Positions 5,933 through 53,764 of a DNA stretch of 64,000 nt are shown here, in pieces. Numbering within the stretch: position 1 is the first letter of the stretch; every line of letters begins with the position of its first letter. A model generated the notes under the pieces. The model did not search any database. It was not told the DNA's origin and saw only the letters and a list, made by a program, of their open reading frames with translations. The DNA is from Candidatus Magasanikiibacteriota bacterium (lineage in GTDB: Bacteria; Patescibacteriota; Patescibacteriia; Magasanikbacterales; UBA922). The translations under genes were made by a program, and so were the position numbers. The DNA lies in the NCBI GenBank assembly GCA_016193335.1, contig JACPSK010000001.1:519738-583737 (forward strand), read 5' to 3'.

Positions 5933-8900
5933 ATGAGAGATTCGCGTTCAAGTTTTCAACGTCTCACCACTTGGTTCGTTATTTTTACAACCTTGTGGTA
6001 TTTTGTGTTTGGATTATCACCTTTTAACATACAAGACCCCACCGTGCCCGTGGTAAAGGCCGCGGCTGTAAGCTGGGCAGGGGCAAGCACCGGCACCTGG
6101 GAAACGGCGAGCAATTGGAGCGGCGGATCTGTGCCAAGTTCAAGCGATGATGTTACCATATCCCCCACAAGCACCAATATCGCGGTTACTCTTTCTTCAG
6201 GCCAAACCGCTGACTTTAGCACACTCACCATGGGCGGGAACGCCACGTACGGAGTAACAACCACTCTTATTGGAAATATCGGCACAGGCGGAAGCATAAC
6301 CATGCAAGGACGTTCCACCACAACCATCCAAAATGCGACGGCGCAAACTATCAGTGGAACTTTAACCATTCAAGCCGGCGGGGCACTGGTACACGCGGAC
6401 AACAGCACTGCGGCTTCCAATATCATAAGTATAAGTGTTGGCGCTCTTGATCTCCAATCCGGCGGTAGAATAGATTTGGATCGACTCGGCTATGACGGAG
6501 GTACGGGGGGCGCTACCGGTTCCGGACCCGGAGGCGGAGCAAAAGGGTCAGTAGCTTCTGGCGGAGGAGCTCATGGAGGAGACGGCGGCGATGGGTATGA
6601 CGGCTCTGCATTAGAGGGTAGTGGCGGGACAGGCTACGACGACTTCACCGGTCCCACTGATCTGGGATCTGGAGGCGGGGGTCTTAATACCAATGGCCCT
6701 GGTGGAGCCGGCGGCGGGGCCGTAAAAATCACGATCACCGGCGGCGGAACCGCCACAATAAACGGCACTCTAACGACGCAAGGGGGTAACGGAGGAAATT
6801 GGGGTACGTCCCGCACGGGAGGCGGAGCCGGCGGCTCTGTATGGATTAATTTCAGCGCCAACGGCACTTTTGCCGGAAGCGGCGCCATAAACGTGGATGG
6901 AGGGGATGGAGGAACAAACGGCGGTGCCTACGATTACTACGCCGGGGGTGGGGGCGGAGGTCGTATTGCCATTACCGGACACAATTCACACACGTTTTCC
7001 GGAACTCTATCTTATGATGGAGGTACTCTCACAGAATCGGTTTCTAATATAGTTTCTCAAGATGGAGGCGGAGGGACATATTGGCTCAAACAATCCGGCC
7101 AAACTGGTGATTTATATATAGGCGGAAACACAAAGGGGCACGACAATCCTGCGCGCGTAGTGGATACAAAGAGTGTGAATGATATATGGTTCGAAGGAGC
7201 AAGCGGTTTGGCCATAGCAAGCGGAGTCACCATAACATTGGCTTCTTCTACCATATCAGCAGGTACTGCTACATCAAGCATTGATATCGACGGGGTCTTT
7301 AGTCTGCCTACCAGCTTTACCATCCCGAATAAAATTTCCGTTACCACCACGGCCACCGGTCTTGATACGGTAAATTCCCTAACCATAGCAGCCGGAGGAC
7401 GTTTGGCGCTTGAATACATTTCAACCAGTTCTCCGTGGACCCAACTGAGTACCCTTACTCTTAATGGCGATTTGACTCATCTCGCGAACACCAGCACCAT
7501 TCATAATTCTGTAAACATTTCAGCTACCACTATCACCATAGGGACCACGGGAAGAGTAATAGCAGACAGATGGGGCTACCCCGGTGGAGCCCCTAACTCA
7601 AGCGGTTCAGGACCTGGCGCTGGCACATTTTTGGATACGCACGGCGGCGGCGGTGCCTATGGAGGCAATGGTGGAAATGGAGCTTCAGGACAAGGACTGG
7701 GCGGCTCTTTGTATGGAACCACATCCACACCGGAATACGATGCCGGTTCTGGCGGCGGCGGGGCTATCGCTACGGTAAGCGGAGGTCCTGGCGGAGGTAT
7801 CATAAAACTCGTTGCCAGCGGCACTTTTACTTTAAATGGCGCCATTTCCGCAAATGGGTTGGCAGGGCCTAATGGATGCGGCGGAAGCCCGGGAAGAGCC
7901 GGGGGAGGCGGAGCGGGAGGAGGTATCAGAATAGAAGCAGGCACTCTAAGCGGCAGTGGAAGCATTGCGGCAAATGGCGGAGACTCTTGGTGTTCCGCAG
8001 GAGCGGGAGGAGGCGGACGTGTGTTGGTGACCGCCTCAACGTATTCTTTTACCGGCACTGTTACCACCACAGCAGGCCAAGAGCAGCAATTTGGAAATGA
8101 CGGAATTATCGGCACAGCAGTGGTTTCTCCATCTGCCGCCGGCACCCTCTACTCAAACAATACTAGCGCGGCGAGCGGACAAACAAATCCGACTAAATTA
8201 ACAGACATAACTCCCGCCTTTTCTGCTGTTTACAATGACCCTGATTCCGGAGATATTGCGAATAAAGCTCGAATCCAAGTGAGCACCAGCCAAACTATGA
8301 GCTCTCCAATCTGGGACTCAGGATCAGGCGGAACCAGCATCACAAATTGCAGCCAAGGAAATCGCTGTCAAGATTTAGTATTTGGCAGTTTTGGCACTGC
8401 TCCCACCACAAACTTGGCGCTCAATGATGACGCAGACGAAAATTCACAAACCACTTATTATTGGCGGCTAAAATATTTTGATGACGAAGTGGGTGAAGGA
8501 GCCTGGTCTTCCACCTCGACTTTTACTCTCCTCGACGCTCCCAATGAACCGAGCGGGGTCGCCACTTCCACTCTTTCCACTACCGCCTTACTTCTGAGCT
8601 GGACAGACAATTCTTCCATCGAAGATCATTTTGACGTGGACCAATCTACTGATGGAACGAGTTTTACCACTGCCACCACCACCGGAGCAAATACCAGCAC
8701 CTACCATTTTTCCGGCCTCACACCAAACACCCAATATACTTTTAGAGTACGGGCCGGCAACAGCGCCGCGAGCTCTACCTTTGCCACGTCAAGCGCCGGA
8801 TACACGCTTGCCAATGCGCCGATTTCTTTATCCGGTTCAGCGGACAGCATGAGCGCGATCACCACAATTTGGGCCGGGAATGACAATCCAAACGGCACAG

Positions 8901-11776
8901 CTTACAATATTCAAGAAGTAAGTACTGCCGCCAGCTCCGGATGGATCACCAATACTACCCACACCTTTACCGGGCTTTCCGGAGGAACGCAATACCAGTT
9001 TAAAGTGAAAGCGAGAAATACCGATGGCATTGAAACTGCTTACACGAGCCCTGTCTACGTATCCACGCCAGACTCGGGAGGAGGTACTGCAGGAGGAGGC
9101 GCGAGCGGCGCGCCATCGGCTCCCTCTACTCCTCCATTCAGTGGCCCGTCACTTCCTCTTGAGCCGGACACACCTTTGCCCGAACTTCAGCCTGCCAAGG
9201 GACTTATATACATACCGAGCCAAAAAAATGATTGGTTTGACATGCTTGAATTTGGAAAAATTCCAAGCGGCACTGAAACAGGTCTTGCAAAAGCAATAGC
9301 GGGAAGCGGTTCTGAAAAAAAATTCAATTTGAATTCAGTATTCAGCATGGAATTCAAAGTCAGACCAAAAATAGCTCCGCAAGGTTTTAGCGGCGTGCCA
9401 ATCATATTTTCAAAAGAAGGATCATACAGACTCACGTTCAATTCAAGCATAGAATCTCTGAAAAAAGGACTGTGTTTCGAAGTTACGCAAAAAGATGCTA
9501 CGAATGTAAGTGTCTGTGACAAAAAACAGCCTCACATTTGGCCGCCTTATGAATATCGCGTAGTTTGGACCGGTACCGCTCTTGAACTCTACGAAGGAGA
9601 AACTCAGCTTGACGTAAAACCACTTTCTTCCATAAAAGACACAGATAAACCTTTGGTGCTAGGCGGAAGTTTAACTGAATACAAACCGGGAAAATTTCTT
9701 ATCAGCAGTTATGAAAATACATTTTACACTCTCAGAGTAAAGCGCGAACAGCCTGTCTATTATATAAACAAAAAGGATATCTCAGTGGTGATCAATCCGG
9801 TATATGCCAAATACGTGGCTCTTAAGGAGAGCTATGAGACTCCGGTAGACGAATTCAAAGACAAAAGCTATGATATTGCCACTAAATCTGAAAAAAATTT
9901 CGATCTGACCGGAGAAGACGGACTAAAATGCGTAAATGCTCTGTTTGCAAATTCACAAACAGACCCGAACAAACAATTTACTGAATCGAGCTATGCTTGT
10001 GTTTATCTGGATACGAAAGCGCCAAACGTGGATTTTTCTGTTGACACGGGAGTGGTGAACGGCGTAGCCATATCACAGCCGAGCCTGAGCGGAGTCTCAG
10101 AGCCAAACGCAACCATCAACATAAGCAGAAAAAAGAAATCGCTTTCAGGAGCTTTGTATCGAAAAAGTATTTTTTATACTCCCATTTTGATGCTGGCGGC
10201 CGATACAGAACAAAACTACAGCACCACAGCCGATGAAAATGGAAATTGGTCTTATACGTTTACCGATGTTTCGGAAATCGGTGAATATGAAATAACGGTT
10301 CAAGCGGAAGATCCGGCAGGAAACAGTTCTGAGCCAGTCAAAAAAAATCTTGTTTTGACGCAAGAACCCCCGGCTCCTGCAGAACCACAGCCAGAAGAGC
10401 CGAAACCTGTCGAACCTGAACCCGAGGAACCCAAGCCCATTGAACCTGCACCAACAGAACCGAAACCGGAAGAACCGAAACCAAAGCCGGCTGACGCAAA
10501 TCCGGATACGCCCGTGAATCCGGAAACTCCAAAATCAACGGCTGACACAAAAACTCCAACAAACGGAAATACTCCGACCGAACAAAACTCCGCAAACAAC
10601 GGGACCTCCACGCAGGCTCTCCCGAATAAAACAACAGCTGAAGAAAAAAATAAAGACAGAACGCCACAGATTGAAATAAAAGGCAGTGTTGAAAAAGCTA
10701 TAGATCTCCTTGGCAGGGGTCTTGAATCTATCAAAACAATTATTGACAACCCTCGGGTAGAACAGGTAAACGAACGCGTAGCCGCCCCAGGCCTTATAGC
10801 CATTGGGTTCGCCAATGCGGCAACCGGAGCCCAACTGCCCAATTTGTTGGCTTTCCTTCGCTATATTTTCGGCCAGCCGATCATGCTCCTGCGAAGACGA
10901 AAACAAAAAAAATGGGGTGTGGTATACAATGCTTTTACCAAACGGCCCGTTGATCTCGCCACCATACGTATCATTGAGGACAAAACCGACAAAGTCGTCC
11001 GAACTCAAGTCACTGACACACACGGCAGATACTTCGTGTCCGTGGACCCCGGCGCCTACCGCATTGAAATTATCAAACCGGGTTTCCTGGGCTTCAGTGA
11101 ATATCTTAAAGAAAAAGATGAAGATTCTTCGTATGTAAATCTGTATCATGGGAGTGTATTTTATCCTTCCGAAGAGCAGGCTTATTTGACCTACAATATA
11201 CCCGTGGATCCTGACGTTCCCGACAAAACCACAGACTCCGTGCTGAAAGATCGTCTAAAATTGGTACTGCACCATGCTTTCAGTGTAGTGGGTCTTATCG
11301 CGAGCGCTGTTTCCTTTGTTGTTTCACCCACGCCACTCATCGGCACACTTTTGGCCCTCCATTTGTTCTTTTATGTGCTCATGTACAAAATCGCTCATCG
11401 CGCCTTGCCGGCGTCTTGGGGTGTTATTTCTGAACAAGGAACGCGCAAAGAACTCGGACACGTGGTAGTGCGCGTCTTTGATTCTGAATATGACAAGTTG
11501 GTGAATACCGAAGTCTCGGACCGCAAAGGACGTTACGCAGTGCTGGTCGGCCCGAGCAGATATTATCTTACTTACGACAAAAAAGAATACAAACTCAAAA
11601 AGAGCCCGACACTGGACTACAGCAGTGAAAAAACGCATGGCCTTGGAGGTCTTATTGACCGCAGTGAAGAATTGGAACGCTTAAAAATACCGAACCGGAA
11701 TACAAAACCTGATTCTGTTTCAGATACAAAAAACTCTGATGCAGCAGGTAAAAATAACATCACTTCAAAAAAATAA
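5933..11776 (+). CDS. Giant (1947 aa) cell-surface protein: signal/TM anchor, Gly-rich beta-helix-like repeat region, fibronectin-III-like domains, Pro/Glu/Lys-rich linker, C-terminal TM segments with CarboxypepD_reg-like domains
   Basis: N-terminal hydrophobic segment. About 700 aa of GGxGG/GxGGxG repeats. FN3-like blocks (WTDNSSIEDHFDVDQSTDGTSF...YTFRVRAGN; YNIQEVSTAASSGW...YQFKVKARN). A PEPQPEEPKPVEPEPEEPKP linker. Two CarboxypepD_reg-like blocks (VTDTHGRYFVSVDPGAYRIEI; SDRKGRYAVLVGPSRYY) flanked by TM helices. Confidence 0.8.
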   Translation: MRDSRSSFQRLTTWFVIFTTLWYFVFGLSPFNIQDPTVPVVKAAAVSWAGASTGTWETASNWSGGSVPSSSDDVTISPTSTNIAVTLSSGQTADFSTLTMGGNATYGVTTTLIGNIGTGGSITMQGRSTTTIQNATAQTISGTLTIQAGGALVHADNSTAASNIISISVGALDLQSGGRIDLDRLGYDGGTGGATGSGPGGGAKGSVASGGGAHGGDGGDGYDGSALEGSGGTGYDDFTGPTDLGSGGGGLNTNGPGGAGGGAVKITITGGGTATINGTLTTQGGNGGNWGTSRTGGGAGGSVWINFSANGTFAGSGAINVDGGDGGTNGGAYDYYAGGGGGGRIAITGHNSHTFSGTLSYDGGTLTESVSNIVSQDGGGGTYWLKQSGQTGDLYIGGNTKGHDNPARVVDTKSVNDIWFEGASGLAIASGVTITLASSTISAGTATSSIDIDGVFSLPTSFTIPNKISVTTTATGLDTVNSLTIAAGGRLALEYISTSSPWTQLSTLTLNGDLTHLANTSTIHNSVNISATTITIGTTGRVIADRWGYPGGAPNSSGSGPGAGTFLDTHGGGGAYGGNGGNGASGQGLGGSLYGTTSTPEYDAGSGGGGAIATVSGGPGGGIIKLVASGTFTLNGAISANGLAGPNGCGGSPGRAGGGGAGGGIRIEAGTLSGSGSIAANGGDSWCSAGAGGGGRVLVTASTYSFTGTVTTTAGQEQQFGNDGIIGTAVVSPSAAGTLYSNNTSAASGQTNPTKLTDITPAFSAVYNDPDSGDIANKARIQVSTSQTMSSPIWDSGSGGTSITNCSQGNRCQDLVFGSFGTAPTTNLALNDDADENSQTTYYWRLKYFDDEVGEGAWSSTSTFTLLDAPNEPSGVATSTLSTTALLLSWTDNSSIEDHFDVDQSTDGTSFTTATTTGANTSTYHFSGLTPNTQYTFRVRAGNSAASSTFATSSAGYTLANAPISLSGSADSMSAITTIWAGNDNPNGTAYNIQEVSTAASSGWITNTTHTFTGLSGGTQYQFKVKARNTDGIETAYTSPVYVSTPDSGGGTAGGGASGAPSAPSTPPFSGPSLPLEPDTPLPELQPAKGLIYIPSQKNDWFDMLEFGKIPSGTETGLAKAIAGSGSEKKFNLNSVFSMEFKVRPKIAPQGFSGVPIIFSKEGSYRLTFNSSIESLKKGLCFEVTQKDATNVSVCDKKQPHIWPPYEYRVVWTGTALELYEGETQLDVKPLSSIKDTDKPLVLGGSLTEYKPGKFLISSYENTFYTLRVKREQPVYYINKKDISVVINPVYAKYVALKESYETPVDEFKDKSYDIATKSEKNFDLTGEDGLKCVNALFANSQTDPNKQFTESSYACVYLDTKAPNVDFSVDTGVVNGVAISQPSLSGVSEPNATINISRKKKSLSGALYRKSIFYTPILMLAADTEQNYSTTADENGNWSYTFTDVSEIGEYEITVQAEDPAGNSSEPVKKNLVLTQEPPAPAEPQPEEPKPVEPEPEEPKPIEPAPTEPKPEEPKPKPADANPDTPVNPETPKSTADTKTPTNGNTPTEQNSANNGTSTQALPNKTTAEEKNKDRTPQIEIKGSVEKAIDLLGRGLESIKTIIDNPRVEQVNERVAAPGLIAIGFANAATGAQLPNLLAFLRYIFGQPIMLLRRRKQKKWGVVYNAFTKRPVDLATIRIIEDKTDKVVRTQVTDTHGRYFVSVDPGAYRIEIIKPGFLGFSEYLKEKDEDSSYVNLYHGSVFYPSEEQAYLTYNIPVDPDVPDKTTDSVLKDRLKLVLHHAFSVVGLIASAVSFVVSPTPLIGTLLALHLFFYVLMYKIAHRALPASWGVISEQGTRKELGHVVVRVFDSEYDKLVNTEVSDRKGRYAVLVGPSRYYLTYDKKEYKLKKSPTLDYSSEKTHGLGGLIDRSEELERLKIPNRNTKPDSVSDTKNSDAAGKNNITSKK

Positions 11777-16200: not shown

Positions 16201-16541
16201 CTTCCAGGCTTATTTCATGATATATAAACAAGGTCCTTCTGCAAACCAAGGGAGACAGAAATGCTCGCGACTTTCGCACACTTCATCTATGATGAACGCC
16301 TCATCCCCTTCAACAGGCAAAACGCGGCCAACTACACGACCATTATGGGCGCCTGGCTGGCCAGAATTTCGTTTTACCTGTTTGGGATCATACTTGTCGC
16401 GTTCGCGATGCGCAGTGAATTGACGCCCTGGATGCTCGGCCTGCGTTACGCAGCCATAGGTTTTGGCATCTTGGCCGGAATCTGCGACGCTTTGGACGGC
16501 TTCATCGCCCGAAAGCTCGGCTGTGTGACCGAACTTGGCAG

Positions 16542-17694
16542 GATACCGTTACCTTTTGGGTGCGTGAAAAGTTGTTTTCTTTGCTAGACTATGCTAAGAA
16601 ATGAGTGTTTAACTAGTTAATTAGCCTACTGTGGTAAAAAAAACACAATCCATCCTGTCAGAAATGTGGGAGCAGGGAAACCAACAAACGAGGAAGCCGA
16701 CGTGAATTAAAAAGATATTGTTGCAAGAGCTGTCGAGGCTCTTTTTCAGTTGATCATGGCAGGAAGAAACCGGTGTTGTGGATTCCCCACATCGATGGTA
16801 TTTCCTTTCGCAAGCTCGGCGATGCACAAGGATTGTCCGGCAAACAGGCATATGTGCGCGTGTTTGATGAACTGAAGACCTTGCCGGAGAATCTGGAAAT
16901 CACCCGACAGTATGGTGCATACACGTCGGGTATTTTAATTATGGATGGAAAATATATTAAAGTCCGCGGATACAAACACAAGATTCCGTTCATCTATGCC
17001 ATTGACTACGAAACGCATGACATCTTGTTTGGGATACTGTCCCATGCTGAAGATGAAAAAACATTTCTTGCATTTTTTCACACACTCAAAACATTGAATT
17101 ATCCACTTCAAGCCGTCGTGGCCGACGACCGAACGTCGCTCCCCTTAGCCTTAAAACAGGTGTACCCGGGTATTCGGGTACAGCTTTGTCTTAACCATTA
17201 TCTGGAGAATATCCGACAACAACTCCACATTCGTACCGATGGAACCCATCGTCATTTTTTTAACGCGCTCAAGAAGCATGTATTTGACCATTACGAAAAT
17301 GACGAACAACTTACGACAGCCCTCCGCCAGGTGTGGACCAACCGATGTGAACAGGTGCCACTCCGCCAAACGATCCTTCTCCAGATTCACCAACGGAGAA
17401 CAGAATTATTTGCATACCACACCATAGTGAACTGTCCGAACAACACCAATCTGATTGAACTGTTTAATTCCCACTTTAATGCTCGACTGAAATCACTGAA
17501 AGGTTTCAAAACCAAAGCCCATGCCATGCTGTGGCTGAATGGCCTCATCATCCGCCGGCGGACAAAACCATTCACTGACTGCGGATCGAAGTTCAAACAT
17601 CTGAACGGCAAATGCTCCCTTGAGATGAGTATCAAAAAACAGGCCGAGTGGCCTGAAATATATGGGGTAAAAGCACCCAAAAGGTAACGGTAAC
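16542..17694 (+). mobile_element. Complete ~1153-bp insertion sequence with ~21-bp terminal inverted repeats and a 9-bp target-site duplication
   Basis: Left end GATACCGTTACCTTTTGGGTGC. The reverse complement of the right end is GTTACCGTTACCTTTTGGGTGC. Direct repeat ACTTGGCAG at 16533-16541 and again at 17695-17703. The element carries a single transposase gene. Confidence 0.75.
16638..17687 (+). CDS. DDE transposase with N-terminal Zn-ribbon (IS1595/IS256/IS1-type; family unresolved)
   Basis: In-frame N-terminal CQKCGS-x17-CCKSCRGSFS zinc ribbon. DDE-type core motifs MDGKYIKVRG, VVADDRTSLPLALKQVYPGIRVQLCLNHYLENI and NLIELFNSHFNARLKSLKGF. No in-frame ATG before 16770; the first GTG/TTG is at 16770/16773. 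Confidence 0.6.
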   Translation, partial: KKHNPSCQKCGSRETNKRGSRRELKRYCCKSCRGSFSVDHGRKKPVLWIPHIDGISFRKLGDAQGLSGKQAYVRVFDELKTLPENLEITRQYGAYTSGILIMDGKYIKVRGYKHKIPFIYAIDYETHDILFGILSHAEDEKTFLAFFHTLKTLNYPLQAVVADDRTSLPLALKQVYPGIRVQLCLNHYLENIRQQLHIRTDGTHRHFFNALKKHVFDHYENDEQLTTALRQVWTNRCEQVPLRQTILLQIHQRRTELFAYHTIVNCPNNTNLIELFNSHFNARLKSLKGFKTKAHAMLWLNGLIIRRRTKPFTDCGSKFKHLNGKCSLEMSIKKQAEWPEIYGVKAPKR

Positions 17695-18349
17695 ACTTGG
17701 CAGCATACTCGATCCGCATCATGACAAAACCCAGTACCTGGCAAAAACCGGCTGCCTGATCGCGGATGCCGCCATCGCGGTGGCTGTATTGGGCAGCTAT
17801 TGGTACCTGGTGGGGGCCGTCATCTTGAAATACGCGGTAAATGAGCGCGATGAGACCGTTATGTTTCACCGCCTCTGGGCCAAAAGCCTGGTCCCAAACG
17901 CGAACTTGGCCGCGGGGTCTTCGGGCAAGATCAGAACCGTGCTCTGCTTTGTGGGCATGCCACTCATGCACTTGTGCGTCCTCCCCTTCGATCTGCTCTC
18001 GGTGTATCTCGGGATCTCGTGTCTGCTCACAAGCATGACCCTCCTCTCACTGAGGATCTACGTGCGGAATTACCGCAATCTGATCCTGAAAGAACGAGGA
18101 CAGCTGAATTGAAGAAGGAATTGGAAAACTCTCGCCTCGCTTGCTTTGCAATTTATCCAGACCGGAAAAATTCATGTAAAAACTTACATTAAAGTACGAT
18201 ACAAAATATCCCGGCCGGCCAGAAAATTAACATTTCCATTCATGAATGCAAAGCAGGAGATCTGGCGAGAGCAAAAAAATCCCGATATGCTCGGGATTTT
18301 TAATTTACAATTCTTGTTTAATTGGAGTTTGTATCAACCAAATCAAATG

Positions 18350-45346: not shown

Positions 45347-48300
45347 TTACCTAGGTTCTCCGAATGGCCCTTGTGGACCTCCTTGTGGCCCACCTGAAGG
45401 AAAACCATTGTTTTGTTGAGAGCCAGGACCCGGTTGAAATCCTCCATTCGGTCCAGAGTCAGAACGAAAATTTTCACGTCTCTCCCCCCCAAATTCCGGC
45501 CGTGGCTTGGGCGAAGGCAAAGGATCAAGCCCAACCTTTTGGTCTCCTCTAAATTCGCTGCTCGGTCTGTTTCGATCTCCTAAGATAGGAGCTTGAGAAT
45601 CATTTGAATTTGGAATGAATACTTTCTTTTTACCTTCATTGTTAGGAGAAAATGATTGATCACCACGTAACCTATCATTTATATTTTCAAACTCCGGCCG
45701 TGGCTTGGGCGAAGGCAAAGGATCAAGCCCTGCTTTTTCGTCTTGTCTAAATTGATCGCCAAACCTGTTTCGATTCCCCGATATGGGACCCGGCAAACCA
45801 CTCGGCATTGGGATCAAACCTCTTTTTTCACGTTCATCATCGGGAGAAGACGAACGATCACCACGTAATCCATCACCCGAATTCTCAAATTCAGGTCTGG
45901 GCATCGGTGAGGGTAAGGGTACAAGACCGGCCTTCTCATTTCTATCAAAACTCTCATTTTGTCTTCTAAAATCAGCTGATTCAGAGCCACCAAATTGTTT
46001 CCCTGAATTGTCCCGGCTTCTTTGTTCAAATCCTTGATTCTGACCGGGAATCTGAAAAGAAGGCACTTGAGACCCGGGCTGAAATGATCCTCCATTCTGT
46101 TTGAAAGAAGAATCGCGCGGATCGCCTTGGTCTCTAAAATTAGCAGGATCAAAGTCTCTTCGCTCTCCTTCAGTACCCTGATTTTCTTGTCTGGCTCTGC
46201 CAGTAAAATCTCTTAAATCACGCTCGATGGAAAAAAACTCTTCCTCTTCGGTTCTTCGTTCTTTGTCCACCTGTGTCATTTGTTCAAAACGCTTGCGCTC
46301 TTCGGCCTTACAGCCCTCATCGCAGAAAGGATCGGCATTCAAGTGGCTTTCAAAAAATTCTTTCCGTTTTTGTTCGTCCTTAGCTTCCAAGTTTCGAAAC
46401 CGCTCATTACGTTCTTCTTGAGCGGCTCTCTGTTCTTCTTCAGAACCTGCGTTCTGAAGACGTGATTCGAATTCTTGTTCCAATTTTTGTCGTTCTTCTC
46501 CTTGTCGAAATTGAAATTCAAATTCTTCGTTCTGGACAGATTCAATCATCTGTCTTTTTTCTTTAAAACGTTCCGCGAAACCGGGATCACGACGTTCCAA
46601 TTCATTCAAAACTTCTTTTGGAATATCAAAACGTTCCTGGAACTGCTGAAATTCTCTTGGATCGCGAATTTCCTGAAGATTTTCTTTTATGCGATCGGAC
46701 TGAGCATCAATGGCCCGATCAAATACTCGATCAAAGCCTTGAGGAGGACCAAAACGTCTAGGATCAAAACTCGGGCCTTCTTCTCCTGCAAAACCTGCCG
46801 GGCCAAAGAAGTCCTCCGGACGTTCAGAAAAATCGTTCTGAAGCCTTCTAAATATTTCTATGTCGCCCGGATTATTGGAGCTGATTTCTTCAAAAAAACG
46901 TTCCCCTTCATCCCTGGCACGCTCAGCAAACCTAGATTTAGCTTCACGTTCCATGTTTTCTATGAACTCACGTTTTTTGGGGTCTGATTTAACCTTTTCC
47001 TCAAGCTGTTGGATAAGTCTAAAAGTGTTAGGATCCGGTTTCTCGGCCATCTGACGAGAAAGCTCACGAAAGCGTTCTGCGTCTGCTTCGGCGTCCGGGA
47101 AGGCCGCCACAAATGATTGTATACTTTTTTCCTCTTCCTGTTTAAATTCTTTCTCTATCTCTTCATCTTTAAAACGGACGCGTTCTTTAAGATCTTGAAT
47201 GGTTTTCATTCGTTCCACACCCACGGAAGATTCTTGATCCTGAAAGCGTTGCATCATGCGCTCACGAGCTCGCGTTTTAAATTCGTTGTCTCCAAATTCT
47301 CCTTCAAATTTACTTTGGAAACGGCGAGCGCTTATATCTTTGGCACGCTCGATTTTGGTTCTAATCTCTTCAGGCAGCCCTTCCACGGATTTAAGCTGAT
47401 CAAAAATTTCCATGTTTCTTGTTTCATCTCCGCCAACTTTATGGGCGTAGCGTTCAAAACGGTCGCCTCTCTCGCTTTCAGGCAATTGTTCAAAGCCATC
47501 TTTAAAACGATTCAAGGCGTTTTCTTGAGCCTGACGAATGGCTCCACGAGCTTCCATGGGTACATGATCTTCAATCCGTTTCAAAACTTCAAGATTTCTT
47601 AAATTTTTGAATTCGCTCCCTGTTTGCCGTTCAAGCACACGATCAAAACGTTCGGTAAGTCTCTCCTGGTTTTCTTCCACACGGGCTATCACCTGCGCCG
47701 CGTGATTGCTCGCTTGATCGCGCGCCTCTTGCACGCGTTCCACGACTCTCTGGGCCACTCCTTCCGGAGCATTCTCGATAATTCTTTGTTCAATGTGTTC
47801 CAATATCTTTTGTTGTTTAATCTGTTTGTCTATCACATTGTCCAAAAGCCGATTAACTCCGGCGTCAGAAGCGCCGCGTTCTCTCAAAGAGTCGGCTTTG
47901 TCTTGTATGTTCTGAAGTCTGTCTTCGAATCGCTCCACTACTCGAGCCACTGCTTCTGTGGCTTGTTCGTCATTAGGATGTTCTTCCACCGCCTGTCTTG
48001 CCTCCTGTAAGTCGACATTACTCCATCTCAACTCGAGTTCAGCTTCTTTTACCGGATTCAAAGTAACGGCTTTTTGTACTGTTCTTCCTATGCCTCTAAA
48101 AAAATTCTTCACTCCAAACAAAGCGTCACCCGGCACTACACGGGATTCTTCTACTCCAAGATCTTCATTTGTTACACGAGCGTCTTCTTCAGCCTCCTCT
48201 GAGGTTTCTTCAGATGTTTCTGCCGCAGGCTCAGCGCTTTCCTCAGAATCCGCAACTCCCGCGGTTTCGCCTGTCTCTGGTCCTTGCTCTAGACCGGCGT

Positions 48301-48478
48301 CTCCATTGTCTTCTGACACAGGGTCAGGAGTTTCGGGATCTGCCGTTCCAGTAGCGCCTGTCTCGGATGCCGCAGGTTCGCCAGGAACCGCGGGCTCATC
48401 GGATTGAGCCAAAACAGGACCGGTGCTTACTGCCAAAGAGAGAAGAGTTGTTAACAATGCGACTTTTTTGTGTTCCAT
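45347..48478 (-). CDS. Large secreted acidic low-complexity protein (signal peptide, E/R/D/F-rich coiled-coil region, C-terminal 66-aa tandem repeats)
   Basis: Signal peptide MEHKKVALLTTLLSLAVSTGPVLA. About 40% charged residues. Repeats GLDPLPSPKPRPEFEN...RGDQ occur x3. Confidence 0.6.
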   Translation of the reverse strand: MEHKKVALLTTLLSLAVSTGPVLAQSDEPAVPGEPAASETGATGTADPETPDPVSEDNGDAGLEQGPETGETAGVADSEESAEPAAETSEETSEEAEEDARVTNEDLGVEESRVVPGDALFGVKNFFRGIGRTVQKAVTLNPVKEAELELRWSNVDLQEARQAVEEHPNDEQATEAVARVVERFEDRLQNIQDKADSLRERGASDAGVNRLLDNVIDKQIKQQKILEHIEQRIIENAPEGVAQRVVERVQEARDQASNHAAQVIARVEENQERLTERFDRVLERQTGSEFKNLRNLEVLKRIEDHVPMEARGAIRQAQENALNRFKDGFEQLPESERGDRFERYAHKVGGDETRNMEIFDQLKSVEGLPEEIRTKIERAKDISARRFQSKFEGEFGDNEFKTRARERMMQRFQDQESSVGVERMKTIQDLKERVRFKDEEIEKEFKQEEEKSIQSFVAAFPDAEADAERFRELSRQMAEKPDPNTFRLIQQLEEKVKSDPKKREFIENMEREAKSRFAERARDEGERFFEEISSNNPGDIEIFRRLQNDFSERPEDFFGPAGFAGEEGPSFDPRRFGPPQGFDRVFDRAIDAQSDRIKENLQEIRDPREFQQFQERFDIPKEVLNELERRDPGFAERFKEKRQMIESVQNEEFEFQFRQGEERQKLEQEFESRLQNAGSEEEQRAAQEERNERFRNLEAKDEQKRKEFFESHLNADPFCDEGCKAEERKRFEQMTQVDKERRTEEEEFFSIERDLRDFTGRARQENQGTEGERRDFDPANFRDQGDPRDSSFKQNGGSFQPGSQVPSFQIPGQNQGFEQRSRDNSGKQFGGSESADFRRQNESFDRNEKAGLVPLPSPMPRPEFENSGDGLRGDRSSSPDDEREKRGLIPMPSGLPGPISGNRNRFGDQFRQDEKAGLDPLPSPKPRPEFENINDRLRGDQSFSPNNEGKKKVFIPNSNDSQAPILGDRNRPSSEFRGDQKVGLDPLPSPKPRPEFGGERRENFRSDSGPNGGFQPGPGSQQNNGFPSGGPQGGPQGPFGEPR
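45440..46000. repeat. Intragenic tandem repeat (~198-bp unit x ~3)
   Basis: TCCGGCCGTGGCTTGGGCGAAGGCAAAGGATCAAGCC recurs at 45496 and 45694, with a diverged third unit near 45895. Confidence 0.5.
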
Positions 48479-48921: not shown

Positions 48922-49992
48922 TTAGGTGCTCACATGAAAATAGCACACATCCCCGTCAAGAACTTCGTAATCCTTGCCCACCAATTTCATTTTTCCTTTT
49001 TCTTTTACACCAGTCCAGCCGCCTTCTGACACAAAATCCTTCCAATTCGCCACATCCGCCTTTATGTATCCCTTTATAAAATCAGTATGGATGACGCCGG
49101 CCGCGTCCGGTCCAAGAGTCCCTCGGGTCACGGTCCAAGCACGAGTTTCCGGTTCTCCGGAGGTAAAAAAGGTAAGCAAATTCAAAAGCCTATAACCTGC
49201 CACAATTATCTTGTCCAACCCAGTCTGTTCCATGCCGAGTTCCTTCATATAGGCTTTTGCTTCCTCTTCAGACAAATCCACCAATTCTGCCTCAAGCTTG
49301 GCGGAAATAGAGACATGGGGAACATTTTCCTCTACCAAAATGCCTTTGTCACCGGATCCTTCATCTTCATTCATAATATACATCAAAGGTTTGTCTGAAA
49401 GCAGATGCAATTGTTTTATGTATATTATTTCTTCTTTTGTACGTTCAAAACTCCGCGCGGGCATACCTGCTTCAAGATGTTTTAAAAGACGTTCACAGAG
49501 CCCAAGCTCAAGGGCCGCTTCTTTGGCCTGAACGCCCTTTGCTTTGCTTTTGATTCTTTCAAAGTATTTGCCAAGAGTCTGCCAGTCTGCCATTATCAAT
49601 TCCAAATTTATTACTTCAGCATCTGTCTTGGGGTTCACTGCCCCATGCACATGGCTAACATTCAAATCCGAAAAATCACGAACCACATGGGCGATAGCGT
49701 CTACTTCTCTTATATGAGCAAGAAATTTATTACCAAGCCCTTCTCCTTCTGAAGCTCCTTTTACCAGACCCGCTATATCCACAAATTCGATGGCGGTTGG
49801 GACGATCTTTTTTGATTTGGAAACGTCTGAAAGCTTTTGCAAGCGCTCGTCTGGAACCGCTACCACCCCCACATTGGGTTCTATGGTGCAAAAAGGATAA
49901 TTCTGGGCCTCAGCCTGTTTGCTTCGGGTAAGCGCGTTGAAGAGTGTGGATTTACCGACATTTGGAAGACCAACAATGCCTATAGAAAGCAT
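48922..49992 (-). CDS. ychF: Ribosome-binding ATPase YchF (Obg-family)
   Basis: G1 [13 protein letters not shown]3 [10 protein letters not shown], and the TGS C-terminal domain. The ORF track extends over the adjacent tRNA; the likely start is MLSIGIVG. Confidence 0.85.
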
Positions 49993-50003
49993 AAAAATTT
50001 TTG

Positions 50004-50077
50004 TGGACCATAGCGGATTTGAACCGCTGACCCCTTGCATGCCATGCAAGTGCTCTAGCCAGCTGAGCTAATGGCCC
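50004..50077 (-). tRNA. tRNA-Ala (anticodon GGC)
   Basis: Reverse complement GGGCCATTAGCTCAGCTGGCTAGAGCACTTGCATGGCATGCAAGGGGTCAGCGGTTCAAATCCGCTATGGTCCA. It has the G3:U70 identity pair, an anticodon loop ATGGCAT, and T loop TTCAAAT. Confidence 0.85.
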
Positions 50078-50195: not shown

Positions 50196-50531
50196 CAATT
50201 CAGTTCTTTTTAAAATTCACTTATCAAGAAGAGACGAGGGATTTGGCCCTATGACTCTCTACCAACCTGATTCTATCGTTTCGCTGGTTCTTCCGGCAGA
50301 GACGGCAAAGAAATAAGGTGGTCCTTCCAACCCACACTGGGGAAGATGCGCCGACATTCAAAAAATGTTGGAAAAATATAAACTTCTTATCTGGTGGGTA
50401 AGATTTTTTTGTTTTATACCCTAACATAAGACAGAAATATCTTACCCGCGGGTATCGGTGAGAAGTCTGTTGGTCCGAGACGGACCAACAGGTGAAAGAA
50501 ACCAAGCAAGCGAATGAGGAGAAACGAACAA

Positions 50532-50888
50532 ATGGCTATCATCAGTCCACAGAAGGAAGCCTTGCTGGCTCTCGCAAGAGTTGCAAGGCAGAGAGATTGG
50601 ATCCTGCCGATCGGCGACTGCCAGCTGGAACTCCAGGGCTATCCAAGGGCGATTCTCCTCGGCCTGCGCCATGACGTGGGCGGAGAAACCGTGGTCTTGC
50701 TCGGCCGGGGAGAGCGCGTCTACGCCGAGATCCCCGGACCCTGCGTCTTCGTGCACTTGCGAGATGCAACTGTGGCTGAGTGTGCCAAGGTCTCGGCCTC
50801 GCGTGTGGACGCGGCCGAGCTCCTCCGTCTGGAGGATGGGTGTCTGGTCCCAACCGGGATCACGGAGGTCTTCGCGAGGCTCGCCTAG
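50532..50888 (+). CDS. Hypothetical protein in GC-rich (~62%) island
   Basis: 118-aa ORF MAIISPQKEALLALARVARQ... with a GAGGAG RBS 10 nt upstream. Both strands are open here, so the coding call is tentative. Confidence 0.3.
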   Translation: MAIISPQKEALLALARVARQRDWILPIGDCQLELQGYPRAILLGLRHDVGGETVVLLGRGERVYAEIPGPCVFVHLRDATVAECAKVSASRVDAAELLRLEDGCLVPTGITEVFARLA

Positions 50889-51333
50889 CGCAGTTCTTTG
50901 TTCTTTGTTTTGATCCGCTCGATGTGGAGAATCGAGCGGCCTTCAGCTTAGGGACGATAGAAAAATCGTAGATGAGCTGAGAGCTTTAAAGATGTCAGGA
51001 AGTAATTGGGAAAGTCGGATAGAAAATTTTGAGCACGATATTCTTAAAAAACAATCCTATGACGGATTCATCAAAAAAGGAGCAGAACGAGAAAGCGAGT
51101 TCATCAGAGAAATGGAGTAATGGCATGATCTCCCATGAGGAATGGGACAGAAGATTCGGCCCGATACCAGAGTTTATTCTCACTATTCCTTATATCAATA
51201 AGCCAAAAAAACAGTCCGATTAATGGAATTATTAAAATAAAGAAATAATATGGCACAAACAGAAGAACAAAGAAAATATACTGATGACGCTATGAAAGAG
51301 TTAATGGGTGGACAAGATGAAGAAACAGAAAAA

Positions 51334-51360
51334 CAGTCCGGCTAAGCCGGACTGTTTTTA
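51334..51360 (+). terminator. Rho-independent terminator
   Basis: ACAGTCCGGC-taa-GCCGGACTGT perfect 10-bp stem followed by TTTTTA. Confidence 0.5.
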
Positions 51361-52050
51361 GTCATCCATTCTCCAAATTATCGAGAGTACCATTAGATTA
51401 TTTATATTGTACGACGTCATTTTTTATAATATTCTAAAAAATAATCCGAGTGCGCTTTCTATTATGTTAAAAAGGTTTACCTTTGTAACCTCATAAGGGG
51501 AACTGTACAAATAGTTGACAAACACTGGCGACTGTGCTACTCTGCACAGTCGCCGTACCTCCAAACAACAGGAAGGAACACGGCGCCTCAGGTCTCAGAC
51601 TCGCAGACGAACTGCCCCACAAAGCCGGGCCAAAGCACCCGGCCGAGGTGCCCGAAACGCACCGGGCAGTCGCGCTGGTAGGCGCCTGAGATGAGCAGTA
51701 CACCGCAGTCGAGCTGGCGACCTCAGGGAGCCTGAACAGGACTTCCCGAGGTCGGGCAGCTCGCAGCGCGGGGTTCGTACTGTTCCTGTCGCCCCCGTTG
51801 GGGGCTGTAGGGGCAGGAGCTTCACTCTCCTGCCCCGTCCGACCACTTGAGCATGACATCCGAGGCTCGGATGCTGCGCTCATGTGATCGGCCTTCAAAT
51901 TAATAATAGAGAGAAGTGGAACGACGCCGAAAGCCCATGAACTGCTCCCCTGAGCAGCGCACGGGCTGGTGGAGTCGTGTGCCTGGTGTCTATTCCACCT
52001 CGCACGCTGGCGTCTGATAGCGCCCCACCAGCACCCTTCAACGACAAGAA

Positions 52051-52076
52051 GCCCGGCAAGAAGCCGGGTCTTTTTC
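52051..52076 (+). terminator. Rho-independent terminator at the end of the GC-rich non-coding block
   Basis: GCCCGGC-aagaa-GCCGGGTC followed by TTTTT. Confidence 0.5.
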
Positions 52077-52682
52077 GTATCCGGATGACGGACAGGACTC
52101 GCCAACGAACGGGCTCCTGCGCGATGCTCGTCGCAGAACTTCAGAATGTAGGTGAAGCCCCAAAATGAAGAACGGCCCAGGAGAGTATCCTGAGTCGGCG
52201 AAGGGCGTCGGCCGAACTGGTCACGCGGGAACGTGACCGGCAAGGCCTTCCAACAAGTCGGAGCGCATGAAGGAACCATGCATACCAACCTGTCAGTTCT
52301 GCCTCCGCCCACGCGGAGATGCTTGGCTGTTATTCATTCTTCTTACACTACCTGGTACCTGTCTGCCTTGTCAAGGCATGGACAGAGCTTGCTGTGAGGG
52401 CTGAAGTATCGGCGGCATGCTACGTGAGAGCCGCGGGCAGTTCCTTAATCATGATTGTGTATCAATTTAAACATTAAAAAAAGATTAAATAAAGTTTAAT
52501 GTGGAACTTAATAAAATTTAATCTGGGCCAGTTAACAATTAACAAACACAATTAATATCACTGAAATATAAGGAAAAAAACTTAATGGGTGTTTTCATTT
52601 TATAGGGCAAACTATATTGGAATTATTCATAAAAGAACAAAATTGTGTATATTATTGTATACAATTTTATTTATAACGCGGC

Positions 52683-52831
52683 CATTTCCCCTTTACTAAA
52701 GGGGAAATGTAGAGAAGATGTCCTTGGGTTTTTCTCAATGGATTCGTAAGTACCCCCTACATCCCTTATACAAACGCCCCCTACTTCCCCTCCTTAGTAA
52801 AGGAGGGAATTCTGGCTGCGAGGTCTATTCC
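52683..52831. repeat. Copy R6 (diverged) of the composite palindromic repeat family
   Basis: TTTCCCCTTTACTAAAGGGGAAATGTAGAG...CCCTACTTCCCCTCCTTagtaaAGGAGGGAATTCTGGCTGCGAGGTCT. Confidence 0.5.
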
Positions 52832-52854
52832 ATTAAGGAAAAATAGAGCAATAG

Positions 52855-52926
52855 TGACCCCACCACGAATCGAACGTGGATCTAGAACTTAGGAGATTCT
52901 CGTTCTATCCATTGAACTATGGGGTC
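52855..52926 (-). tRNA. tRNA-Arg (anticodon CCU)
   Basis: Reverse complement GACCCCATAGTTCAATGGATAGAACGAGAATCTCCTAAGTTCTAGATCCACGTTCGATTCGTGGTGGGGTCA. Acceptor GACCCCA/TGGGGTC, anticodon loop CTCCTAA, T arm CCACG-TTCGATT-CGTGG. Confidence 0.85.
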
Positions 52927-52984: not shown

Positions 52985-53764
52985 CTAAGCTAGTGCCCAA
53001 AGAAGCTTAAACATATCTCTTAGCATACGAACAAGTTGCGCGTGTCTAATATGAACAATTGCCAGCTCTTGTTGGTCTTCATAAAGGATCAAAACTTCGG
53101 CCTCGGCCAAAATGAGTTGTCCCCCAAAGAGAATGTTCTCCTTTGCCGTTTGTTTCATCCATTTGTTGTCTATTCCAAATTTATCAGGCTCAAGTGAAGC
53201 AATCCATTTCCTGCCGGCTTCATTGTCTGCCACAAGAAGATTGTCGGCAGTATCTAAGCCTATTCTTGAGATATATAGATTCCACCAGAGATCAAAAGCG
53301 CCAAAAACAGCCAAGCTGGAAGCATCCAGTATTGAAAGGGTCTGAGGATTATTTGTATAAAAATCGGTATATTCGGCTCGACAAGCATCCAAACCATGAA
53401 AAGTCTCTAGAGAAAATCTCTCATCAATACTATATAAAGATAAGAAATCTGGCAAGTGTAATTGAAGATCCCGAACGGTCCTCGCGGTTTCACTTTGCTT
53501 CTTCTCTGCCAGAGCAAGAAGATTCTGAGGGTGTAAGGAGCGATACATCTGTTTGCCAGAGTCTATTAATCCTCCGGATTCTGACCGAAGTCTTTTTACC
53601 AAACCGAGAGATTCCAATTTTCTCAAAATATGATAGCCCAAAGTTCTGGTGACTCCTGCTCTAGCTGTAACATGAGACACCGTGGACTCTCCGAGATCAA
53701 GCAAGGCAAGATACAGTTTTGCCTCAGATTCTTCCAATCCTATGGATTTGAGAATTTCAAGCAT
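52985..53764 (-). CDS. TrmB-family transcriptional regulator (winged-helix sugar-responsive regulator)
   Basis: N-terminal EAKLYLALLDLGESTVSHVTARAGVTRTLGYHILRKLESLGLV is a TrmB-type wHTH. A C-terminal effector domain is plausible. Confidence 0.6.
   Translation of the reverse strand: MLEILKSIGLEESEAKLYLALLDLGESTVSHVTARAGVTRTLGYHILRKLESLGLVKRLRSESGGLIDSGKQMYRSLHPQNLLALAEKKQSETARTVRDLQLHLPDFLSLYSIDERFSLETFHGLDACRAEYTDFYTNNPQTLSILDASSLAVFGAFDLWWNLYISRIGLDTADNLLVADNEAGRKWIASLEPDKFGIDNKWMKQTAKENILFGGQLILAEAEVLILYEDQQELAIVHIRHAQLVRMLRDMFKLLWALA

What the first reader, a model, noticed from the sequence alone, without database searches (positions are those of the whole stretch)
51490..52450. ~1-kb GC-rich non-coding block with promoter-like site, 11-bp perfect palindrome and terminator: candidate structured RNA or foreign remnant
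In a ~40% GC genome this ~60-65% GC segment has both strands open, and the resulting ORFs (for example 51491..52312 on the minus strand) translate to R/S/C/W-rich nonsense. At its 5' edge are TTGACA-17-TACTCT (51514-51542) and the perfect hairpin GGCGACTGTGC-tactct-GCACAGTCGCC (51525-51552). An intrinsic terminator (GCCCGGC-aagaa-GCCGGGTC-TTTTT) lies at 52051-52076. No tRNA/tmRNA/RNase P/SRP signature was recognised by eye. It could be a large structured ncRNA, a group I/II intron fragment, or a horizontally acquired remnant.
Basis: seen in the sequence. Interest (0 to 1): 0.6.

Follow-up and report, generated by a model that had tools for sequence, protein, structure and literature searches.

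The report
Orphan GC-rich hairpin-dense non-coding block
A single-copy stretch of about 0.9 kb in a tiny uncultured (CPR, Magasanikbacteria-like) bacterium is far more GC-rich and hairpin-dense than its surroundings, codes for no recognisable protein and matches no known RNA family, so it is a plausible but unproven new large structured RNA gene, possibly acquired from elsewhere.

Summary
Window 51545-52450 is 58-66% GC in a genome of about 43% GC. It holds 11 distinct perfect hairpins (shuffles give 2.3). Its first 536 nt fold far better than shuffled sequence (z about -9 on both strands), whereas GC-matched coding DNA gives z of +1.4 to -2.4. It matches no Rfam family, even at E<=10. No frame has a protein homologue in 5.8 or 1.84 billion proteins. 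There is no GC3 codon bias, and no DNA relative turned up in phage, plasmid, viral, metagenome or related-genome sequence. The block sits in a variable interval between tRNA-Ala and tRNA-Arg. It is absent from the only syntenic relative (L012) and from the nearest relative of the neighbouring gene (L011). It is invariant in all ten contigs of the one population that carries it. My best reading (confidence 0.45) is a lineage-specific, probably acquired, stand-alone structured RNA of about 530 nt on the + strand. It would run from a TTGACA-17-TGnTACTCT promoter to a canonical terminator at 52051-52076, followed by a less structured 370-nt GC-rich tail. Covariation cannot be tested. The strand signals conflict. 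An unexpectedly long 273-codon open frame (P about 0.001) remains unexplained. The group I/II intron, RNase P and tmRNA readings are not supported.

The parts
51401..51430 (+). Alternative promoter-like site TTTATA-18-TATAAT, about 110 nt upstream of the GC-rich block.
   Evidence: Consensus scan, 10 of 12 matches. Function not shown.
51515..51543 (+). Promoter-like site: TTGACA (51515-51520), 17-nt spacer, TG-extended TACTCT (51538-51543).
   Evidence: Read from the sequence. The -35 hexamer is perfect. The -10 hexamer matches 3 of 6, so it falls below the scan's threshold. Other promoters in this locus are canonical sigma-70 type.
51527..51554 (.). Perfect palindrome with 11-bp arms and a 6-nt spacer that is the -10 hexamer. 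It could be an operator or a 5' hairpin.
   Evidence: It is unique in the window, has no T-tract on either side and has no second copy.
51545..52078 (+). Part 1: the highly structured core, the candidate RNA of about 530 nt.
   Evidence: z = -8.9 on + and -8.7 on -. A repeat run gave -6.3 and -10.0. 66% of bases are paired, and unpaired bases are 38% A.
51572..51896 (+). Predicted domain I, a multi-branch domain closed by GAAGG/CCUUC. It contains a three-way junction (51582-51686), a long hairpin (51688-51790), and hairpins at 51791-51805, 51810-51836 and 51839-51891.
   Evidence: MFE helix list. The stems are perfect. This is a prediction only, with no covariation support.
51897..51912 (+). 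AU-rich stretch predicted to be single-stranded, lying between the two domains: AAAUUAAUAAUAGAGA within UUCAAAUUAAUAAUAGAGAGAAG.
   Evidence: It is the only long unpaired, AT-rich stretch inside the block.
51913..52039 (+). Predicted domain II, closed by GAAGUGG/CCCUUC, with hairpins at 51921-51978, 51979-52005 and 52009-52024.
   Evidence: MFE helix list.
52051..52076 (+). Intrinsic terminator: a 7-bp GC stem, an AAGAA loop and a CUUUUU tail.
   Evidence: Scan hit. It has the same grammar as this genome's other terminators.
52077..52450 (.). Part 2: a GC-rich tail (58% GC) with weaker structure. Its status is unclear. It could be read-through, a second transcript or a remnant.
   Evidence: z = -1.3 on + and -2.8 on -. 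Perfect hairpins lie at 52219-52238, 52303-52318 and 52364-52378.
51491..52312 (-). A 273-codon open frame, called as a 262-aa gene by gene finders. It is probably spurious.
   Evidence: Its only homologue is itself. Phase bias is weak. The codon-model score is -0.18. AlphaFold2 mean pLDDT is 38. However, its length is unexpected, with P about 0.001.

Best explanation
The block is a stand-alone locus for a lineage-specific large structured non-coding RNA that was probably acquired horizontally. Proposed steps follow. (1) Inferred: transcription starts at about 51550 on the + strand from TTGACA-17-TGnTACTCT, or at about 51437 from the upstream TTTATA-18-TATAAT site. (2) Predicted from the sequence: the RNA folds into two GC-rich multi-branch domains (51572-51896 and 51913-52039) joined by an exposed AU-rich linker. 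(3) The motif is shown, its function is inferred: transcription ends at the canonical terminator at 52051-52076, giving an RNA of about 530 nt. The 370-nt GC-rich tail is read-through or a relic. (4) Inferred with low confidence: the very stable helices act as a nuclease-resistant scaffold, while the AU-rich linker and A-rich loops form the surface that binds a protein or an RNA partner. The perfect palindrome straddling the -10 hexamer would be an operator for a dimeric DNA-binding protein. The nearby TrmB-like regulator is one candidate.
For: GC is 0.58-0.66 against about 0.43 for the genome. Fold z is about -9. Sliding z-scores of -2 to -8.6 run across windows starting 51400-52150 and weaken beyond about 52300, whereas the neighbouring GC-rich coding ORF gives about -0.5. 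GC-matched coding controls give +1.4 to -2.4. There are 11 distinct perfect hairpins (16 counts) against 2.3 counts expected. No codon-phase GC3 bias is present. No protein homologue exists in any frame. On the + strand, unpaired bases are 38% A, as is typical of folded RNAs. The + strand has a perfect -35 hexamer with a TG-extended -10 and a canonical terminator of this genome's type. The block is present and identical in 10 contigs from at least 9 samples, always in the same place. Long GC-rich intergenic regions in AT-rich genomes are an established enrichment for structured RNAs (PMC6429828, PMC11109978).
Against: No homologue was found anywhere, so there is no covariation or conservation evidence. 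The block is absent from the syntenic relative L012 and from L011. Strand signals conflict. The minus strand has the lower MFE. In part 1, only 3 positions are G.U on + while 11 would be G.U on -, and part 2 shows the opposite, 9 against 4. The stems are almost all Watson-Crick, with 5.5% G.U on +. I saw no GNRA tetraloops among the hairpin loops when reading the folds. The -10 hexamer is weak and the scan did not call it. The palindrome has no second copy. The 280-codon open stretch is longer than chance allows, with P about 0.001. In published GC-IGR surveys most such regions turned out to be ORFs, and candidates with fewer than five representatives are ranked low (PMC11109978).
Confidence: 0.45

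Rival explanations
1. The block is an inert remnant of horizontally acquired GC-rich DNA, for example a fragment of a donor's structured RNA, UTR or mobile element. It retains hairpins but has no function in this host.
For: The tRNA-Ala..tRNA-Arg interval differs between relatives, and L012 and L011 lack the block. This genome and its relatives carry other GC-rich islands that look acquired. Part 2 is only weakly structured. No conservation is detectable.
Against: Part 1 has z of about -9 with many perfect stems, which argues against decay. A promoter-like site and a host-type terminator frame part 1. No donor sequence was found. A 0.9-kb inert insert is costly in a very small genome (inference).
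Confidence: 0.27
2. The block is an orphan protein-coding gene on the minus strand (51491-52312, 262-273 aa), as gene callers annotate it.
For: The open stretch of 280 codons exceeds 99.9% of dinucleotide shuffles. This frame scores best of the six in a codon model. Phase composition is weakly non-uniform, with p = 0.04.
Against: The composition is rich in S, R, C, W and P, and GC2 is 64% with no GC3 excess. The codon score of -0.18 is below independent true GC-rich CDS controls, which score +0.02 to +0.22. No homologue exists among about 15 billion proteins. AlphaFold2 gives pLDDT of 38. I saw no Shine-Dalgarno sequence or minus-strand promoter near the start. An mRNA with z of -9 would be extraordinary.
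Confidence: 0.1
3. The block is a DNA-level element, a cluster of palindromes acting in replication, transfer or recombination (an origin, attC-like sites or mobile-element ends), rather than an RNA.
For: The structure is nearly strand-symmetric, with perfect Watson-Crick stems. The block lies in a variable hot spot next to dispersed REP-like hairpins.
Against: No integrase, transposase or Rep gene lies nearby. There are no terminal inverted repeats and no tRNA-derived direct repeats. No second copy exists in 84 kb of the contig. About 20 different helices cover two thirds of 900 nt, which is unlike known origin or att sites (established knowledge).
Confidence: 0.1
4. The block is a highly diverged member of a known RNA class, such as an ORF-less group I/II intron, RNase P RNA, tmRNA, or OLE, GOLLD or ROOL.
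For: Its size and GC-richness fit. GOLLD and ROOL often lie near tRNA genes (my own knowledge). The stem GAGCAGUAC/GUACUGUUC at 51693-51701/51777-51785 superficially recalls the base of a group II domain V (my reading, from memory). The genome encodes RnpA, so an RNase P RNA must exist somewhere.
Against: No Rfam model hits the block, even at E<=10 with lax filters. ARAGORN finds no tmRNA. The domain-V-like stem encloses 75 nt rather than the few nucleotides of a hairpin tip, and it lies only about 150 nt from the 5' end.
Confidence: 0.03

Closest known systems
Large 'ornate' bacterial RNAs of unknown function (OLE, GOLLD, ROOL; PMC12286853, PMC3413148)
   Same: It is a stand-alone locus of 0.5-0.9 kb, is non-coding and has many helices in multi-branch domains. 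Like GOLLD and ROOL (my own knowledge), it sits next to tRNA genes in an accessory-looking region.
   Different: It does not match their Rfam covariance models, even at E<=10. It has no homologues, so no conserved nucleotides or covariation are known. It occurs in a CPR bacterium rather than in Firmicutes or phages. No partner genes are associated with it.
GC-rich long intergenic region candidates from the GC-IGR / DIMPL pipelines (PMC6429828, PMC8723152, PMC11109978)
   Same: It has exactly the signature those pipelines select, namely an intergenic region far more GC-rich and longer than the genome norm.
   Different: With one unique representative it would be filed there as 'unnamed' or 'low-ranking candidate'. 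Most such regions in those surveys proved to be ORFs. Here ORF status was tested and was mostly negative.
ORF-less group II intron
   Same: The size is similar, the sequence is GC-rich and folded, and one stem recalls the base of domain V.
   Different: No domain V/VI or D1-D4 model hits. The stem encloses 75 nt. There is no intron-encoded protein and no interrupted host gene.
Horizontally acquired GC-rich islands in Magasanikbacteria-like genomes (L031, L014, L026, and window 3273-4691)
   Same: There is a sharp GC jump against an AT-rich genome. In the relatives these islands lie within a few kb upstream of YchF. The island at window 3273-4691 lies about 45 kb from YchF.
   Different: Those islands are clear protein-coding genes with strong GC3 bias and z-scores near zero. 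The block has neither property.

Membership tests
Any Rfam 15 family (including OLE, GOLLD, ROOL, HEARO, raiA, 6S, SRP, riboswitches and ribozymes) | A covariance-model match at the family's gathering score. | tested here: not met
   There is no hit in the block at gathering score. At E<=10 the only hits are two chance-level ones, mir-1304 and anti-hemB, each more than 35 bits below threshold.
Group II intron | The domain V/VI core, D1-D4 domains, a 5' GUGYG, and usually an intron-encoded reverse transcriptase. | tested here: not met
   No Rfam intron model hits. No RT ORF is present. The only DV-like stem encloses 75 nt.
Group I intron | The conserved P3-P8 core (Rfam model) and insertion within a host gene. 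| tested here: not met
   No model hits. The adjacent tRNA-Arg(CCU) is intact and lies 400 nt away.
Bacterial RNase P RNA | The conserved regions CR-I to CR-V and the P4 helix (Rfam models). | tested here: not met
   No hit at E<=10. rnpA is present elsewhere on the contig, so the true RNase P RNA remains unlocated within the 84 kb examined.
tmRNA / tRNA-like | A tRNA-like domain plus a tag reading frame. | tested here: not met
   ARAGORN finds only three tRNAs in the window and none in the block.
Protein-coding gene (intact or decayed) | Homologues, or a codon-phase composition bias (GC3 much greater than GC2 in GC-rich genes). | tested here: not met
   No frame has a homologue other than the ORF's own record. 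GC by phase is 0.62/0.63/0.57, against 0.69/0.45/0.73 and 0.56/0.44/0.80 for real GC-rich ORFs.
Protein-coding gene (intact or decayed) | An open reading frame longer than composition alone allows. | tested here: met
   There are 280 open codons, against a shuffle mean of 140 and a 95th percentile of 202, giving P about 0.001. This is the one feature that favours coding, and it is unexplained.
tRNA-targeting integrative element | An integrase plus a direct repeat of the tRNA 3' end at the far boundary. | tested here: not met
   No integrase lies within 10 kb on either side. Repeats of the tRNA-Arg or tRNA-Ala regions reach only 10 nt or less, which is chance level.
Intrinsic terminator (52051-52076) | A GC-rich hairpin followed by a U-tract. 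| tested here: met
   Scan hit. It has the same form as this genome's intergenic terminators.
Sigma-70 promoter (51515-51543) | -35 and -10 hexamers spaced by 16-18 nt. | tested here: inconclusive
   The -35 hexamer matches 6 of 6, the spacer is 17 nt and TG is present. The -10 hexamer matches only 3 of 6, so the scan did not list the site. No transcription data are available.
Conserved structured RNA (any new class) | Homologues with compensatory base changes. | not testable with these tools
   No homologue could be retrieved. All ten contigs that carry the block are identical across it.

The most novel reading that the evidence does not exclude
The block is the first seen member of a new class of large (0.5-0.9 kb) ornate structured RNA in CPR/Patescibacteria. 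It would be expressed from its own promoter and built of two very stable GC-rich multi-branch domains displaying an AU-rich interaction segment. It would have been acquired or evolved in a tRNA-flanked hot spot.
Probability: 0.3. Interest if true: 0.7.

Novelty: new variant of a known kind. Interest (0 to 1): 0.45.

Why it matters
Large structured bacterial RNAs are rare, and several of them (OLE, GOLLD, ROOL) turned out to have unprecedented architectures. As far as I know and as far as my literature searches showed, none is known from CPR bacteria. Their minimal genomes make a 0.9-kb non-coding block conspicuous. If the block is transcribed and conserved in unsampled relatives, it would add a new class and a handle on CPR biology. 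If it is not, it is an example of how GC-rich foreign DNA with strong hairpin content, and a spurious 262-aa 'gene', enter MAG annotations.

Tried and rejected
- **Rfam.** I searched at gathering score and at E<=10, on 2.7 kb and on 1 kb, and found nothing.
- **blastn.** Searches of the phage and plasmid collections found nothing.
- **Protein-level searches for homologous loci.** The 273-aa frame matched only itself in the 5.8-billion and 1.84-billion protein sets. The five other frames, concatenated, gave no hit at E<=1.
- **Back-translated pattern scans.** Scans of JGI metagenomes and IMG/VR found nothing. Three DNA patterns scanned against IMG/VR also found nothing: one with loops specified and stems left free, the AU-rich linker, and the palindrome.
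- **Synteny.** A genome scan with the TrmB-like protein found nothing. A YchF scan returned 80 loci, but neither nhmmer nor a single-sequence covariance model found the block in them. An alignment of ORF124 found nothing in metagenomes.
- **Exact-protein look-ups.** Look-ups with TrmB, ORF124, P0001 and ribosomal protein S20 returned only the same population.
- **Paralogues.** I searched the window and 10 kb beyond each end and found none.
- **GC-rich islands in relatives.** These proved to be protein-coding genes, not analogues of the block.
- **Recoded-TGA gene on the + strand.** I rejected this. The absence of TAA and TAG in that frame is expected with only 14 TA dinucleotides, and the translation is Arg-rich nonsense.
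- **Integrative element at a tRNA gene.** I rejected this.
- **Palindrome as a minus-strand terminator.** This is unlikely, because the palindrome has no T-tract, unlike real terminators in this genome.
- **Strand assignment by G.U asymmetry.** The result was contradictory between the two halves of the block.
- **AlphaFold2 on the ORF.** It gave pLDDT of 38, which is uninformative but consistent with a non-protein.

Full report
**Source and context**

The window is part of contig CAYOIR010000001.1 (246 kb) of MAG GCA_964404105.1. YchF's best relatives, at 65-70% identity, are Candidatus Magasanikbacteria and other Patescibacteria. The organism is therefore a CPR bacterium with no closely related genome in the collections I could search. 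The surrounding genes are housekeeping genes. They include a type IV pilus cluster, YchF, RmuC, ribosomal protein S20, HolA and PolA, with DnaA, DnaN and RnpA just beyond the window.

The local gene order is as follows:

| Feature | Coordinates | Strand |
|---|---|---|
| YchF | 48922-50049 | - |
| tRNA-Ala(GGC) | 50003-50077 | - |
| SAM riboswitch | 50218-50352 | + |
| GC-rich ORF (ORF124) | 50514-50888 | + |
| Three small ORFs | 50992-51345 | + |
| Bidirectional terminator | 51329-51359 | both |
| The block | 51545-52450 | unresolved |
| Two REP-like hairpins | about 52688 and 52790 | n/a |
| tRNA-Arg(CCU) | 52854-52926 | - |
| TrmB-like regulator | 52985-53764 | - |

**Checking the observation**

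The GC jump is sharp. GC is 0.36 at 51250-51549, 0.66 at 51550-51849, stays between 0.57 and 0.62 up to 52449, and drops to 0.27 at 52450-52749. The quoted motifs are all present but shifted by 1-2 nt:
- TTGACA lies at 51515-51520, and TG-extended TACTCT at 51538-51543.
- The perfect 11-bp palindrome lies at 51527-51554.
- The terminator lies at 52051-52076.

The -10 hexamer matches only 3 of 6 positions and was not reported by the consensus scan. That scan reported TTTATA-18-TATAAT at 51401-51430 instead. 'Both strands open' holds only for one minus-strand frame.

**Is it structured beyond chance?**

Yes. Region 51545-52080 folds with z = -8.9 on the + strand and -8.7 on the - strand. An independent re-run gave -6.3 and -10.0. 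Sliding 200-nt windows give z of -2 to -8.6 for windows starting 51400-52150, weakening beyond about 52300. The adjacent GC-rich coding ORF gives about -0.5. Six GC-matched 536-nt coding controls, from this genome and from L031, give +1.4 to -2.4. The block contains 11 distinct perfect hairpins with stems of at least 6 bp (16 stem/loop counts), against 2.3 +/- 1.9 counts in shuffles. It gives three counts of at least 10 bp, from two distinct hairpins, against 0.013 expected. The right-hand 370 nt (52077-52450) is much less structured, with z of -1.3 and -2.8.

**Is it coding?**

Almost all tests say no.
- GC by codon phase is flat at 0.62/0.63/0.57. Real GC-rich ORFs here show 0.69/0.45/0.73 and 0.56/0.44/0.80.
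- Chi-square phase heterogeneity gives p = 0.04-0.1, against 1e-5 to 1e-39 for real ORFs.
- The 273-aa translation has no Pfam domain. It has no homologue but itself in 5.8 billion clustered proteins.
- A full HMMER scan of 1.84 billion representatives also found only itself, plus one repetitive low-score hit.
- The other five frames, concatenated, hit nothing at E<=1.
- AlphaFold2 gives mean pLDDT of 38.
- A codon-usage model trained on GC-rich genes scores the frame at -0.18. That is the best of the six frames, but it is below independent true CDS controls, which score +0.02 to +0.22.

One result points the other way. An open stretch of 280 codons is reached by only about 0.1% of dinucleotide shuffles. 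I cannot explain this and I list it as unexplained. The + strand frame in the same phase has only TGA stops. That is expected, because the block has just 14 TA dinucleotides.

**Is it a known RNA?**

No. Rfam 15 gives nothing at gathering score. With lax filters at E<=10 it gives only two chance-level hits. ARAGORN finds no tmRNA or tRNA in the block. The group I/II intron, RNase P, SRP, 6S, OLE, GOLLD, ROOL, HEARO and small-ribozyme models therefore all fail.

**Relatives**

None were found.
- blastn against phage and plasmid collections found nothing.
- Pattern scans of JGI metagenomes and IMG/VR found nothing.
- nhmmer and a single-sequence covariance model found nothing in about 0.7-1 Mb of Magasanikbacteria-like loci.
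- No paralogue exists within 84 kb of the same contig.
- Exact-protein look-ups with four different anchor proteins returned the same population each time. The block is identical and sits in the same place in 10 contigs from two sequencing projects. There are 4 SNPs in 10 kb between the projects, and none is in the block.

Two informative relatives lack the block. L011 carries the SAM riboswitch plus the orthologue of ORF124 (69% aa identity, with third-position-biased substitutions). Its homology ends at about window 51055, and its next 1.1 kb holds no GC-rich block. L012 keeps the order YchF, tRNA-Ala, SAM-like leader, small GC-rich ORF, then tRNA-Arg, but has a membrane-protein gene where the block would be. 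The interval between the two tRNA genes is therefore a variable hot spot, and the block is a lineage-specific insertion. Other GC-rich islands near YchF in relatives (L031, L014, L026) are plain protein-coding genes.

**Architecture and strand**

The MFE model predicts the following elements:
- the palindrome as a 5' hairpin (51526-51555);
- domain I, closed by 51572-51576/51892-51896 and holding five sub-helices;
- an unpaired AU-rich linker (51897-51912);
- domain II, closed by 51913-51919/52034-52039;
- the terminator hairpin.

Three things favour the + strand. Its promoter-like site and terminator follow this genome's own grammar, in which real terminators are A-tract, hairpin, T-tract, whereas the palindrome has no T-tract. 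Unpaired positions on the + strand are 38% A, against 21% A overall. The minus strand has no comparable promoter next to the block.

Three things favour the - strand. Its MFE is lower, at -285.7 against -260.1 kcal/mol. In part 1, only 3 helix positions are G.U on the + strand, whereas 11 would be G.U on the - strand; part 2 shows the reverse, 9 against 4. The long ORF and the tRNA-Arg gene also share the minus orientation. I regard the strand as unresolved and lean towards + at roughly 60:40.

**Interpretation**

The combination of extreme, specific fold stability, absence of coding signal, A-rich loops and host-type transcription signals is best explained by a stand-alone structured RNA gene. 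Its absence from relatives, the sharp GC jump and the many acquired GC-rich genes in these genomes suggest acquisition from a GC-rich source. The function is unknown. The mechanism I commit to, with low confidence, is a stable scaffold RNA whose AU-rich linker and A-rich loops bind a partner, expressed from a promoter whose -10 hexamer sits inside an operator-like palindrome.

The main rival is that this is inert foreign DNA. The others are an orphan gene, a DNA-level palindrome cluster, and a diverged known RNA. In the nomenclature of the GC-IGR surveys this would be an 'unnamed' or 'low-ranking' candidate, because it has a single unique representative (PMC11109978).

**Verdict**

The feature is real and is not a member of any known family. 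It is a candidate new large structured RNA. Conservation, transcription and strand are all untested, so interest is moderate.

Noticed in passing
window 50218-50888; L011 1-711; L012 5336-5830: A SAM riboswitch (49.8 bits, above gathering score) controls an orphan GC-rich 118-124-aa ORF that has no Pfam domain. The only homologue (69% aa identity) also follows a SAM riboswitch. Substitutions are biased to the third codon position (29/22/52), so the gene is real. AlphaFold2 gives pLDDT of 55. In L012 the homologous leader precedes a different GC-rich small ORF. This looks like an unknown SAM-regulated function in CPR bacteria.
   Followed up: partly
window 15072, 16053, 16134, 20407, 20450, 20489, 22622, 22662, 24507, 52688, 52790: A dispersed REP/MITE-like hairpin family, (CTTACAT)CCCCYCCTT-AGTA/GAAA-AAGGRGGGG, often occurs in pairs 40-100 nt apart. 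It gives 11 pattern matches against 0.07 expected. Two copies lie between the block and tRNA-Arg.
   Followed up: partly
window 51491-52312 (-): The open frame of 273-280 codons through the block is longer than 99.9% of dinucleotide shuffles, although every other coding test fails. Gene callers annotate it as a 262-aa protein (P0001). This is unexplained.
   Followed up: yes
window 16261-18112: An IS256/Mutator-family transposase gene (16773-17687; PF00872, E = 7e-11) appears to be inserted in a GC-rich CDP-alcohol phosphatidyltransferase gene. The N-terminal part is at 16261-16587. The C-terminal part, at about 17700-18112, had no Pfam hit.
   Followed up: partly
window 3273-4691 and 5933-9300; L031 2532-3617; L014 1-400; L026 1-480: Sharp GC-rich (58-68%) protein-coding islands sit in AT-rich Magasanikbacteria-like genomes. 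They include an MFS transporter, a giant fn3/Big_13 surface protein and a Cys-rich secreted protein. This suggests repeated gene acquisition from GC-rich donors. A phage-type integrase next to a tRNA gene lies just left of the window (L092 12263-13470).
   Followed up: partly
window 50992-51359: Three small AT-rich ORFs of 42, about 32 and 31 aa lie between ORF124 and the block. The last two end in KQSD* and KQSG*, within a duplicated 20-nt segment (51204-51223 and 51326-51345). The second copy forms the stem of the bidirectional terminator at 51329-51359.
   Followed up: no
window 45347-48478 (-): A 1043-aa protein has no Pfam domain. It is very rich in E, R, D and F, has a signal-like N-terminus and carries three C-terminal repeats of GL(V/I/D)PLPSPxPRPEFEN.
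   Followed up: no
L093 7719-8081 (10 kb right of the window): rnpA (the RNase P protein) is present, so the genome should encode an RNase P RNA. None was detected by Rfam in the 84 kb examined.
   Followed up: partly
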